This document shows positions 1-696 of a stretch of DNA of 696 bases, one piece after another. The stretch comes from a phage. Where the stretch lies: sequence record AF039878.1, one strand, 5' to 3'. Position 1 is the first letter of the stretch; each line of letters begins with the position of its first letter. Both the position numbers and the translations under genes were made by a program. Below the pieces are notes generated by a model, which was not told where the DNA came from, did not search any database, and saw only the letters and a list, made by a program, of their open reading frames with translations.

Positions 1-9
1 GGGCGTNNC

Positions 10-22
10 CTGCAAATCCGAC
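10..22 (+). repeat. Copy A of 13-nt direct-repeat family (cTGCAAATCCGAC; 12/13 match to consensus GTGCAAATCCGAC)
   Basis: Direct reading: positions 11-22 tgcaaatccgac match the consensus; position 10 is c instead of g. Flanked by N runs at 7-8 and 23-26, so the edges are uncertain. Confidence 0.7.
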
Positions 23-35
23 NNNNTCTGGTAGT

Positions 36-48
36 GTGCGAATCCGAC
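36..48 (+). repeat. Copy B of 13-nt direct-repeat family (GTGCgAATCCGAC; 12/13)
   Basis: Direct reading: gtgcgaatccgac, one substitution (A to G at motif position 5); preceded by tagt, as in copy C. Confidence 0.8.
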
Positions 49-66
49 CCGAAAAATTTTTATAGT

Positions 67-79
67 GTGCAAATCCGAC
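67..79 (+). repeat. Copy C of 13-nt direct-repeat family (exact GTGCAAATCCGAC)
   Basis: Exact 13/13 match; preceded by tatagt, followed by the A/T linker aatgaattttc. Confidence 0.9.
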
Positions 80-92
80 AATGAATTTTCCC

Positions 93-111
93 AAAAACTC
101 CAGCAATCACG
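93..111 (+). repeat. Copy 1 of second repeat motif AAAAACTC-MR-GCAATCA-YG (aaaaactccagcaatcacg)
   Basis: 19-nt stretch matching 433-451 at 16/19 positions; lies immediately downstream of 13-nt copy C and its AATTTTC linker. Confidence 0.75.
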
Positions 112-122
112 AACTGCGTTCG
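110..122. other. Perfect hairpin: stem CGAAC / GTTCG, loop TGC
   Basis: Positions 110-114 cgaac are the reverse complement of 118-122 gttcg; 3-nt loop 115-117. Located at the 3' edge of second-motif copy 1. Confidence 0.6.
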
Positions 123-127
123 AATCC
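118..127 (+). promoter_or_regulatory. tRNA B-box-like decamer GTTCGAATCC (10/11 to the Pol III B box / T-loop consensus GGTTCGANTCC); not an intact tRNA
   Basis: Direct match of gttcgaatcc; the preceding base is c rather than g. No A box found upstream and the flanks do not form a T-arm stem, so at most a tRNA-derived remnant. Confidence 0.25.
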
Positions 128-147
128 TGTGGAATTAGCTAGAGTAT

Positions 148-160
148 GTGCAAATCCGAC
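148..160 (+). repeat. Copy D of 13-nt direct-repeat family (exact GTGCAAATCCGAC)
   Basis: Exact 13/13 match; preceded by atgt. Confidence 0.9.
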
Positions 161-172
161 ATGTGTTGAGAT

Positions 173-185
173 GTGCGNNNNGGAC
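173..185 (+). repeat. Probable copy E of 13-nt family (GTGCg-NNNN-gGAC)
   Basis: gtgcg at 173-177 and ggac at 182-185 align to motif positions 1-5 and 10-13 with the four Ns (178-181) over motif positions 6-9; one mismatch at motif position 10. Preceded by atgt like copies D and G. Starts exactly 25 nt after copy D. Confidence 0.5.
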
Positions 186-202
186 AAGATTNTTGTGACT
201 TC

Positions 203-353
203 GATGGGAGGGTGTGTGATTGTAGGGGTTTGAGGGGAAGATGAGAGAGCGAGAGAAATTTGGGAGGCTAGAAGGATAGGGGCGCAGGATTGGTGCGGAG
301 CACCTGATTTGCGGGGATTTTGGGGAAGAGTTGAGATAATTTGGGAAGATTTG
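203..353 (+). other. Purine/G-rich, C-poor low-complexity block with multiple G3-G4 runs
   Basis: By my count only 9 C in this ~150-nt stretch (positions 250, 268, 283, 285, 296, 301, 303, 304, 312). G-runs at 206-208, 210-212, 225-228, 234-237, 279-282, 313-316, 322-325, 343-345. Confidence 0.8.
243..256 (+). repeat. Short interrupted GA dinucleotide tract (gagagagcgagaga)
   Basis: Direct reading; (GA)3-G-C-(GA)3 microsatellite-like tract inside the purine-rich block. Confidence 0.7.
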
Positions 354-432
354 NNATANGTGCANGAAANAGTAAAATTTTATTAACTAAAGGGGGCAAA
401 ATAGCTTGACAAGTGAAAATTTCTGTGGCTCT

Positions 433-451
433 AAAAACTCAGGCAATCATG
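433..451 (+). repeat. Copy 2 of second repeat motif (aaaaactcaggcaatcatg)
   Basis: 16/19 identity to 93-111. The upstream context (gcaaaat..cttgac..aagtgaaaatttc at ~396-423) resembles a degenerate 13-nt core plus linker, suggesting the same composite unit as at 67-127. Confidence 0.7.
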
Positions 452-463
452 GGCCTTCGGCCC
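451..463. other. Perfect hairpin: stem GGGCC / GGCCC, loop TTC
   Basis: Positions 451-455 gggcc are the reverse complement of 459-463 ggccc; 3-nt loop 456-458. Located at the 3' edge of second-motif copy 2, the equivalent position (within 1 nt) to hairpin 110-122. Confidence 0.6.
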
Positions 464-501
464 GAAATAATGCTGCTATTTTCAGGAGAGTAAGANTTCC
501 T

Positions 502-514
502 AAAAACTTAGGCG
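502..514 (+). repeat. Partial third copy of second motif (aaaaacttaggcg)
   Basis: Shares aaaaact and the ggc core with the other two copies, but runs directly into 13-nt copy F without the downstream hairpin. Confidence 0.4.
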
Positions 515-517
515 TTT

Positions 518-530
518 GTGCAAATCNGAC
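518..530 (+). repeat. Copy F of 13-nt direct-repeat family (GTGCAAATCnGAC)
   Basis: 12 resolved bases match the consensus; N at 527 occupies motif position 10. Preceded by tttgt. Confidence 0.8.
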
Positions 531-552
531 CATAAATTTCTAGAAACACAAT

Positions 553-565
553 GTGCAAATCCGAC
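553..565 (+). repeat. Copy G of 13-nt direct-repeat family (exact GTGCAAATCCGAC)
   Basis: Exact 13/13 match; preceded by aatgt; followed by agtaatttctggaaa. Confidence 0.9.
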
Positions 566-645: not shown

Positions 646-696
646 TAATGCCTGGANGTTCANNGANCATCCAAACTNCNCTACAATAATGTNGCN

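What the first reader, a model, noticed from the sequence alone, without database searches (positions are those of the whole stretch)
10..565. Seven same-orientation copies of a 13-nt core, GTGCAAATCCGAC, across the window
Four exact and three near-exact copies of a 13-mer in 696 nt, all on one strand, is far beyond chance. Start-to-start spacings are irregular (26, 31, 81, 25, 345 and 35 nt), and short conserved flanks are present (TGT before, an AATTTC linker after in several copies). This pattern fits either a dispersed or tandem repeat family, or a clustered protein-binding site (iteron-like or transcription-factor array). The core is too short and too irregularly spaced for CRISPR. Without knowing the source organism I cannot tell which.
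Basis: seen in the sequence. Interest (0 to 1): 0.45.

Follow-up and report, generated by a model that had tools for sequence, protein, structure and literature searches.

The report
Phage T5 "direct repeat D" array
The repeated 13-mer is the already catalogued "direct repeat D" of bacteriophage T5, a one-directional array of probable protein-binding sites that straddles the end of the phage's terminal repeat, where DNA injection pauses; its function is still unknown.

Summary
Seven same-strand copies of GTGCAAATCCGAC lie at window 10, 36, 67, 148, 173, 518 and 553; chance predicts 0.01.

The window is a low-quality read of Escherichia phage T5, AY587007 ~9710-10420. It covers the "injection stop signal" region and the inner end of the left terminal repeat (TR), which ends at window 431. 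The copies are the annotated "direct repeat D" (DRD) copies 2-8.

In the whole T5 genome there are 18 hits with at most one mismatch (12 distinct places), all on one strand, against 0.09 expected. The polar array brackets the TR end in Tequintavirus/Epseptimavirus, Pectobacterium phage My1 and Vibrio phage AG74. Some Vibrio phages carry a variant motif, and Proteus phage Stubb has no array. Paired motifs occur only in T5-like contigs, not in host chromosomes.

No function is assigned in the literature held.

- **Best guess (about 0.3):** binding sites for the essential pre-early DNA-binding protein A2, acting in second-step DNA transfer. A2's predicted recognition helix is as invariant as the motif.
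- **Main rival:** terminase recognition at the concatemer junction.
- **Poor fits:** CRISPR, DnaA boxes, phased iterons, a dispersed repeat.

The feature is already known; the function question remains open.

The parts
1..6 (+). Tail (GGGCGT) of the downstream element of the T5 major nick-1 site (CCCTGCGC, then 29-30 nt, then GATTACGCGTGGGCG). DRD1 lies just left of the window, in the spacer of that site.
   Evidence: Alignment to T5; comparison of the four annotated nick sites. The bipartite nick consensus is my own reading.
10..22 (+). DRD copy 2. The window reads CTGCAAATCCGAC; T5 has GTGCAAATCCGAC.
36..48 (+). DRD copy 3, GTGCGAATCCGAC (the common A5G variant).
67..79 (+). DRD copy 4, exact.
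148..160 (+). DRD copy 5, exact.
173..185 (+). DRD copy 6. N-masked in the read; GTGCGAATCCGAC in T5.
186..360 (+). C-poor, G-rich spacer tract with GGGG runs between DRD cluster A and the terminal-repeat end. It holds annotated direct repeat A copies 2-3.
   Evidence: GC skew +0.6 to +0.8; annotation
365..482 (+). Block about 97% conserved around the inner end of the left terminal repeat. The TR's last base is window 431 (...TTCTGTGGMTC|TAAAAACTC...). The block contains TTGACA and the hairpin GGGCCTTCGGCCC (451-463). It is the likely terminase cut region.
   Evidence: TR annotations in T5, Spc35, EscoHU1 and MM-1 coincide; conservation profile
518..530 (+). DRD copy 7, in unique DNA 87 bp beyond the TR end. 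The read has one N.
553..565 (+). DRD copy 8, exact, 122 bp beyond the TR end.
684..696 (+). Place where DRD copy 9 (GTGCAAATCCGAT in T5) should lie. It is not readable in this degraded read end.

Best explanation
**Identity (shown, near certain).** The window is bacteriophage T5 DNA. It spans the right part of the 'injection stop signal' (iss, Repeat Region 3) and the inner end of the left terminal repeat. The seven copies are 'direct repeat D' (DRD) copies 2-8.

**Nature (inferred, likely).** Each DRD is an asymmetric site of about 14 bp, T-GTGC-RAAT-CCGA-Y, for a sequence-specific DNA-binding protein. The sites form a strictly one-directional array in two clusters, one on each side of the terminal-repeat end.

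**Mechanism (inferred, tentative).** The binder is the essential pre-early protein A2.
1. A2 is made from the first-step-transfer (FST) DNA.
2. It would bind the DRDs that begin 5 bp beyond the 7.9% nick, which lies within about 50 bp of the published FST boundary (~9618).
3. As these sites emerge into the cell, successive binding would hold and draw in the DNA.
4. With A1, this would restart second-step transfer.

The sites are closely spaced at first: 46, 26, 31, 81 and 25 bp. Spacing then becomes sparser: 344, 35, 137 and 1676 bp.
For: **Identity**
- 94.5% identity to T5 over 97% of the window, with differences mostly at Ns.
- GenBank annotation of DRD copies, the iss and the TR end.

**Not chance, and polar**
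- T5 has 18 hits with at most 1 mismatch, all on the + strand, against 0.09 expected. There are no hits with exactly 2 mismatches.
- In 49 A2-anchored loci there are 328 of 328 hits on one strand.

**Selected at the DNA level**
- The motif persists while spacers diverge in Sugarlandvirus, Pectobacterium My1 and Vibrio AG74, whose A1 is only about 31% identical to T5's.
- Between T5 and AG74, the only shared words of 13 nt or more in this non-coding region are palindrome D and the DRD; a DnaA box accounts for a 12-mer.
- The information lies in GTGC and CCGA.
- An internal copy in gene D13 is exact in 27 of 28 contigs. In a pVp-1-sized Vibrio contig it appears in another reading frame.

**Phage-specific**
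- The paired motif occurs only in contigs of 95-123 kb, the size of T5-like genomes. It forms no enterobacterial chromosomal array.

**A2 as candidate**
- A2 is essential, DNA-binding and required for second-step transfer (preprint 10.64898/2026.04.02.716235).
- Its homologues appear mostly in hosts typical of T5-like phages.
- The AlphaFold2 model (pLDDT 83) gives a helix-turn-helix whose second helix is PVSVRSKLTS.
- VRSKL, YQK and RKxHYVR are invariant across lineages that share the motif.
- Lineages with an altered motif have altered A2 motifs. PG07 has GTGCGGATTCTA with QKIHYIR. Stubb has no array, with VRTKL and HVVF.
- By contrast, the third helix of the terminase small subunit's predicted helix-turn-helix differs between lineages that share the identical motif.
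Against: - No binding data exist. The A2 link rests on conservation logic across only about three independent lineages.
- The fold search gave no significant match.
- The published FST boundary (~9618) puts DRD1-6 just outside the cytoplasm at the pause, so A2 could reach them only once the DNA moves.
- The clusters bracket the terminal-repeat end in every lineage checked. A packaging role explains this at least as naturally.
- Proteus phage Stubb has A2 but no DRD array.
- The internal copies at 12074 and 79020/79035 have no obvious role in a restart model.
- Other conserved DNA-binding proteins of the phage were not screened.
Confidence: 0.3

Rival explanations
1. Terminase recognition array (cosB/pac-like) at the concatemer junction. 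The DRD clusters flank the cut that creates the right genome end. They would load terminase for the initiating cut, or define the terminal-repeat boundary and its duplication.
For: - The clusters lie on both sides of the TR end: T5, Spc35, EscoHU1 and MM-1 (-466 to -257, and +87, +122, +259), My1, and AG74.
- There are none at the TR left boundary. That fits a single initiation site if the right end is packaged first; I infer this from left-end-first ejection.
- Uniform polarity suits a directional motor.
- 'SciB' is the terminase small subunit (phrog_3802, E 6e-91).
- Precedents from my own knowledge: lambda cosB R sites, SPP1 pac boxes, and T7 short repeat arrays flanking its terminal repetition.
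Against: - The predicted recognition helix of the small subunit is not conserved among lineages with an identical motif.
- The block of about 120 bp at the cut itself is more conserved than the DRDs and could suffice.
- The array spans 740 bp, wider than typical small-subunit sites.
- Distances from the clusters to the TR end vary between lineages: 41 to 351 bp.
- Stubb lacks the array yet must still package its DNA.
Confidence: 0.25
2. Part of the injection stop itself. A pre-existing host or virion protein, or the tail/portal channel, recognises the polar DRDs as the DNA passes and arrests transfer.
For: - The array starts 5 bp after the 7.9% nick, which lies within about 50 bp of the published FST boundary (~9618), inside the annotated iss.
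- The pause is generally held not to need new phage protein synthesis (my own knowledge).
- The region is extremely conserved (Davison 2020).
- Motif invariance across hosts could reflect a conserved virion or host protein.
Against: - The iss is classically placed left of the shear point; Davison favours IRD'-spacer-IRC' and DRE.
- No array occurs in host genomes.
- The conservation pattern does not fit DnaA boxes.
- Cluster-to-cluster distance is not constant between phages, so a fixed tail-length geometry fails.
- Pauses during ejection in vitro were attributed to nicks (PMC2771126).
Confidence: 0.15
3. Iterons of a replication or recombination/circularisation origin, working with the adjacent DnaA boxes.
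For: - Same-orientation short repeats lie next to four DnaA or DnaA-like boxes and an AT-rich/G-rich stretch, an architecture like a theta origin.
- T5 encodes a protein annotated as 'replication origin binding protein'.
Against: - The spacings (46, 26, 31, 81, 25, 35) are not helically phased.
- No initiator gene is adjacent.
- T5 origins were mapped near the genome centre, and the replication genes arrive only with the second step (Davison 2020).
- The T5 protein matches Herpes_ori_bp only over the helicase part, not the DNA-binding domain.
Confidence: 0.07
4. Accessory sites for the enzyme that makes T5's strand-specific nicks.
For: - DRD1 sits inside the nick-1 site.
- DRD11/12 lie 370 bp from nick 4.
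- Nicks and DRDs are both strand-polar.
Against: - Nicks 2 and 3 have no DRD within 1 kb.
- Nine copies serving one nick is excessive.
- Nickless mutants are viable (my own knowledge), whereas the array is strongly conserved.
Confidence: 0.05

Closest known systems
T5 'direct repeat D' (DRD) of Repeat Region 3 / injection stop signal (GenBank AY587007 annotation; Davison 2020, bioRxiv 10.1101/866236)
   Same: Identical element. [quoted passage not shown]
   Different: Nothing differs in the sequence. The literature held assigns no function.
Terminase small-subunit binding arrays (lambda cosB R1-R3; SPP1 pacL/pacR boxes). From my own knowledge.
   Same: Short repeated protein-binding sites beside a genome-end cut site, acting in a directional process.
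   Different: Those arrays are compact (about 100-200 bp) and binding is proven. The DRDs span 740 bp on both sides of the cut, and the small subunit's recognition helix does not track the motif.
T7 short repeat arrays flanking the terminal repetition (SRL/SRR). From my own knowledge.
   Same: Same-orientation short repeats next to the boundaries of an exact direct terminal repeat in a phage that packages from concatemers.
   Different: The T7 repeats are about 7 bp, tandem, and lie at both boundaries of a 160-bp repeat. The DRDs are 13-14 bp, irregularly spaced, and lie only at the inner boundary of a 10-kb repeat.
Plasmid/phage origin iterons (for example P1 oriR, RK2 oriV)
   Same: Direct repeats in one orientation near DnaA boxes.
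   Different: Iterons are 17-22 bp, helically phased and next to their initiator gene. None of this holds here.
DnaA boxes (TTWTNCACA)
   Same: T+DRD read backwards, ATTTGCACA, matches 8 of 9 positions. True DnaA boxes lie 200-350 bp upstream.
   Different: Position 5 should be a fixed A for DnaA but varies A/G. The free N position is an invariant C. The CCGA half, irrelevant to DnaA, is among the most conserved.

Membership tests
T5 DRD repeats (iss / Repeat Region 3) | Sequence lies in T5-like phage DNA at the inner end of the left terminal repeat | tested here: met
   The window matches T5 9800-10471 of AY543070 at 94.5% identity. The iss and LTR features lie under the match.
T5 DRD repeats (iss / Repeat Region 3) | Copies coincide with annotated 'direct repeat D' features, consensus (T)GTGCAAATCCGAC | tested here: met
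   DRD copies 2-8 map onto window 10, 36, 67, 148, 173, 518 and 553.
CRISPR array | Repeats of about 21-48 nt at regular period, with unique spacers of similar length | tested here: not met
   The core is 13 nt and the spacings are 26, 31, 81, 25, 345 and 35.
Dispersed repeat / mobile element family | Copies scattered genome-wide, in both orientations, in host or phage genomes | tested here: not met
   Nine of 12 distinct T5 places lie in one 740-bp stretch, all on one strand. Apart from one T5-like contaminant contig, the five stretches found among 185,579 bacterial genomes are unrelated tandem repeats.
Replication-origin iterons | Helically phased spacing (multiples of about 10.5-11 bp) | tested here: not met
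   The spacings 46, 26, 31, 81, 25 and 35 equal 4.4, 2.5, 3.0, 7.7, 2.4 and 3.3 helical turns.
Replication-origin iterons | Bound by a cognate initiator encoded nearby | tested here: inconclusive
   No initiator gene is adjacent. The distant 'origin binding protein' matches Herpes_ori_bp only in the helicase region. Binding is not testable here.
DnaA boxes | Match to TTWTNCACA, with a conservation pattern following that consensus | tested here: not met
   The match is 8 of 9. However, the logo of 162 unique sites conserves the wrong positions: invariant C at N, variable A/G at a required A, and a strong CCGA.
Terminase recognition site (cosB/pac type) | Located beside the terminase cut that forms a genome end | tested here: met
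   The clusters flank the annotated TR end in T5, Spc35, EscoHU1, MM-1 and My1. The same holds for AG74, where the TR end comes from self-alignment.
Terminase recognition site (cosB/pac type) | Specifically bound by the terminase small subunit and required for packaging | not testable with these tools
   There is only indirect evidence against: the small subunit's third HTH helix varies among lineages with the same motif.
A2 operator-like sites (proposed here; not an established family) | Specific binding by A2 | not testable with these tools
   Indirect support only: an invariant predicted recognition helix and altered A2 motifs where the DNA motif is altered or absent.
Known structured RNA / tRNA / coding sequence | Rfam, ARAGORN or ORF signal | tested here: not met
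   No Rfam match at E up to 10, no tRNA, and the longest ORF is 50 aa.

The most novel reading that the evidence does not exclude
The DRD array is the long-sought cis element through which the essential protein A2 restarts T5's second-step DNA transfer. It would be a polar, sequence-specific 'binding ratchet' laid out from the pause point across the terminal-repeat end. It would be conserved from coliphages to Vibrio phages and would co-vary with A2's DNA-reading motifs.
Probability: 0.25. Interest if true: 0.65.

Novelty: already known. Interest (0 to 1): 0.3.

Why it matters
How T5 halts injection after about 8% of its genome and then resumes has been open since the 1960s. How long exact terminal repeats are cut and duplicated is also unknown.

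The DRD array sits at the junction of both problems and has no assigned role. If it proves to be the A2 target, or alternatively the terminase loading site, one of these questions becomes directly testable with defined DNA sites and purified proteins.

As a sequence feature it is not new. It is annotated in GenBank and described in the T5 literature.

Tried and rejected
- **RNA, tRNA, coding:** Rfam (E up to 10), tRNA and ORF scans found nothing.
- **Plasmid collection:** no match.
- **CRISPR, dispersed repeat, artefact:** rejected on anatomy and distribution.
- **Host-chromosome array:** the paired motif hit six stretches among 185,579 bacterial genomes. One is a T5-like contaminant contig. 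The other five are unrelated tandem repeats in Nostoc, Myxococcota, Bacteroidales and Alphaproteobacteria MAGs.
- **DnaA box:** 8 of 9 resemblance, but the conservation pattern is wrong.
- **HSV UL9 lead (from memory):** box I CGTTCGCACTT, read backwards, shares GTGCGAA with a DRD variant. The T5 'origin binding protein' matches Herpes_ori_bp only in the helicase part, so I dropped this as unsupported.
- **Tail-length geometry:** in T5 the array spans about 738 bp, roughly 250 nm. The span and cluster distances differ in My1 and AG74, so I rejected the idea.
- **Nick link:** only nicks 1 and 4 have DRDs nearby.
- **Separating A2 from terminase by distribution:** failed. Both sets of homologues are dominated by the same hosts (Vibrio, Salmonella, Escherichia, Klebsiella, Proteus, Pectobacterium). 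Contigs with A1 but no A2 lack the motif, but they are unrelated phages.
- **Foldseek of the A2 model against the PDB:** no significant hit; best E 0.7.
- **Literature:** the motif string appears in no open-access full text. Davison 2015 was not held; Heusterspreute 1987 and Wang 2005 were not looked up.

Full report
**Observation.** The 696-nt window is a low-quality read with many Ns. GTGCAAATCCGAC occurs six times on the + strand with at most 2 mismatches, at 10, 36, 67, 148, 518 and 553. It never occurs on the - strand. Expected is 0.01, and 0 of 200 shuffles reach six. The claimed seventh copy at 173-185 is masked by Ns. There is no Rfam family, tRNA or ORF longer than 50 aa.

**Identity.** There is no plasmid match. 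Among phages, 514 records match; the best is Escherichia phage T5 at 94.5% identity over 97% of the window. Alignment to AY587007 9710-10420 shows that nearly all differences are Ns or base-calling noise. It also resolves three details:
- Copy 1 is an exact GTGC... in T5.
- The masked copy is GTGCGAATCCGAC.
- A further copy, GTGCAAATCCGAT, lies where the read's 3' end degenerates.

AY587007 annotates these as 'direct repeat D' copies 2-8. AY543070 places the 'injection stop signal (iss)' at 9140-10149. The left terminal repeat ends at AY587007 10139, which is window 431. Copies 7-9 are in unique DNA.

[quoted passage not shown] He stresses their conservation in 25 T5-like phages. [quoted passage not shown] The motif string occurs in no open-access full text.

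**Distribution in T5.** In the complete T5 genome there are 18 hits with at most 1 mismatch, all on the + strand, against 0.09 expected. There are none with exactly 2 mismatches. They fall as follows:
- Six in each terminal repeat: 9673-9895, and the same six in the right repeat.
- Three just beyond the left repeat: 10226, 10261 and 10398.
- One at 12074, inside ORF019.
- A tandem pair at 79020/79035, inside exo2/D13.

The half-motifs are equally polar: AATCCGAY occurs 13 times on the + strand and 0 on the - strand.

**Distribution elsewhere.**
- A paired-motif pattern found 42 stretches in IMG/VR, all on contigs of 95-123 kb, the size of T5-like genomes.
- It found six stretches in 185,579 bacterial genomes. 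One is a T5-like contaminant; five are unrelated tandem repeats.
- The motif is therefore locus-specific and phage-specific.

**Comparative anatomy.** In T5, Spc35, EscoHU1 and MM-1 the copies sit at the same offsets from the annotated TR end: -466, -420, -394, -363, about -285 and -257, then +87, +122 and +259. The junction sequence is GTGGMTC|TAAAAACTC.

| Lineage | What is found |
|---|---|
| Sugarlandvirus (Klebsiella) | At least five copies among diverged spacers |
| Pectobacterium phage My1 (Mccorquodalevirinae) | Six copies before and three after its TR end |
| Vibrio phage AG74 (Ermolyevavirinae) | Copies 42-168 bp inside and 194 bp outside the TR boundary; A1 about 31% identical to T5's; TR of 7130 bp from self-alignment |
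| Vibrio pVp-1-sized contig (L153) | GGTGCAAA kept, with a loose 3' half |
| Vibrio PG07 / VspSw_1 | 5-7 copies (PG07) and 2-3 (VspSw_1) of TGTGAGTGCGGATTCTA |
| Proteus phage Stubb (Novosibvirus) | One degenerate direct copy; the palindrome, DnaA boxes, nick site, G-rich tract and junction block are retained |

- Across 49 A2-anchored loci, all 328 hits have one orientation.
- Between T5 and AG74, the only shared words of 13 nt or more in the region are palindrome D and the DRD; a DnaA box accounts for a 12-mer.
- Within Markadamsvirinae the cores are only modestly more conserved than their surroundings: 89% against 82%, p = 5e-5. The block of about 120 bp around the TR end is the most conserved, at about 97%.
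- The logo of 162 unique sites is T-GTGC-R-A-A-T-C-C-G-A-Y-A. Most of the information is in GTGC and CCGA.
- The array is widespread in the family, but it is neither universal nor immutable.

**Internal copy.** The D13 copy at 79035 is exact in 27 of 28 Markadamsvirinae contigs, while the adjacent copy drifts. A pVp-1-sized Vibrio contig has a one-mismatch copy about 16 nt away in a different reading frame. This hints at selection on the DNA rather than on the protein.

**Who binds?** Two conserved DNA-binding proteins are the obvious candidates.
- **Terminase small subunit.** 'SciB' is this protein (phrog_3802). T5 and AG74 versions are 43% identical. The third helix of its N-terminal helix-turn-helix differs among lineages that share the identical motif.
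- **A2.** A2 (phrog_1725, PF26822) is 41% identical between T5 and AG74. Across those same lineages it keeps S...VRSKL, YQK and RKxHYVR invariant. An AlphaFold2 model (pLDDT 83) places VRSKL in the second helix of a helix-turn-helix, followed by a basic linker and a basic helix. Foldseek gave no significant PDB match.
- **Co-variation.** Where the DNA motif changes, A2 changes too. PG07 has QKIHYIR with GTGCGGATTCTA. Stubb has VRTKL and HVVF with no array.

This is suggestive co-variation from about three lineages. It is not proof. Distribution could not separate the two proteins.

**Mechanism.** I rank the models as follows.
- **A2 binding sites for second-step transfer (about 0.3).** The array begins 5 bp after the 7.9% nick, which lies within about 50 bp of the published FST boundary (~9618). 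It is polar, and its spacing widens with distance, as a start-up ratchet would.
- **Terminase recognition at the concatemer junction (about 0.25).** The clusters bracket the inner TR end and are absent from the outer one. This is what a single initiation site predicts if the right end is packaged first, an inference from left-end-first ejection.
- **Part of the stop signal, via a host or virion factor (about 0.15).**
- **Origin iterons (about 0.07).** They are unphased, have no adjacent initiator, and the UL9-like protein matches only in its helicase part.
- **Nicking accessory (about 0.05).**

**Shown versus inferred.**
- Shown: identity, polarity, distribution and conservation.
- Inferred: all binding and function.

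**Verdict.** It is the known DRD array of the T5 iss and terminal-repeat junction, so the feature is already known. Its function remains an open and testable question.

Noticed in passing
window 1-6; T5 AY587007 9661-9716, 22250, 39660, 78651: The four annotated major nick sites share CCCTGCGC. An element like (G/T)ATTACG(C)G follows 29-30 nt downstream. The window starts inside that second element of nick 1, and DRD1 occupies the spacer. In Proteus phage Stubb the PhageTerm 'terminal repeat end' falls exactly at CCCTGCGC|. That suggests the nick was mistaken for a terminus, because a junction-like block lies about 750 bp further on.
   Followed up: partly
just left of the window: T5 9574-9640 (L001 2355-2421); also T5 228-252: The DRC repeats resemble Fur boxes (GATAATGATAATCATTATC, consensus from memory). 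There is a 16/19 match at 9615. Ten of 14 hits with at most 5 mismatches in the non-redundant genome lie in the 10-kb terminal repeat. T5's receptor FhuA is Fur-regulated. Davison 2020 does not mention Fur.
   Followed up: partly
window 186-360: A C-poor, G-rich tract (GC skew up to +0.8) with several GGGG runs lies between DRD6 and the terminal-repeat end. A comparable G-rich tract is present in Proteus phage Stubb. There it carries inverted DRD-like words, GGATTTGCAG, at 10-bp spacing.
   Followed up: partly
window 365-482 (TR end at 431|432): This is the most conserved block of the region (about 97% in 10 phages). It surrounds the terminal-repeat end and holds GGGGGCAAAA, TTGACA and the hairpin GGGCCTTCGGCCC (UUCG-type loop). 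GGGGGCAAAA and TTGACA recur in My1 and a related TTGACA block in Sugarlandvirus. Read inward, both genome ends share TCCAC (left TGTCCAC..., right ...GTGGATC).
   Followed up: partly
L240 1475-1952, L241 4640-5017 (Vibrio phages PG07 / VspSw_1): A lineage-specific variant array, TGTGAGTGCGGATTCTA, in two clusters on the same strand relative to A2 as the DRDs. It keeps GTGC..AT.C.A.
   Followed up: partly
T5 79020-79047 (gene exo2/D13) and 12074 (ORF019): Internal DRD copies inside coding sequence, in the same orientation as the array. The 79035 copy is exact in 27 of 28 related contigs. A pVp-1-sized Vibrio contig has a near-copy in a different reading frame. A copy at the position of 12074 recurs, with one mismatch, in Epseptimavirus-like contigs.
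   Followed up: partly
L059, L061 (Nostocales genomes), L058, L060, L063: Unrelated bacterial contigs contain tandem repeats of period 22-51 nt whose units happen to include GTGCRAATCCGAC. They have no similarity to T5.
   Followed up: no
window 225, 279, 386, 429: A few non-N differences from T5. For example, GTGGCTC instead of GTGGATC at the TR end, which is the base found in Spc35, EscoHU1 and MM-1. The read may come from a T5 variant or close relative rather than the reference strain, or these may be base-calling errors.
   Followed up: no
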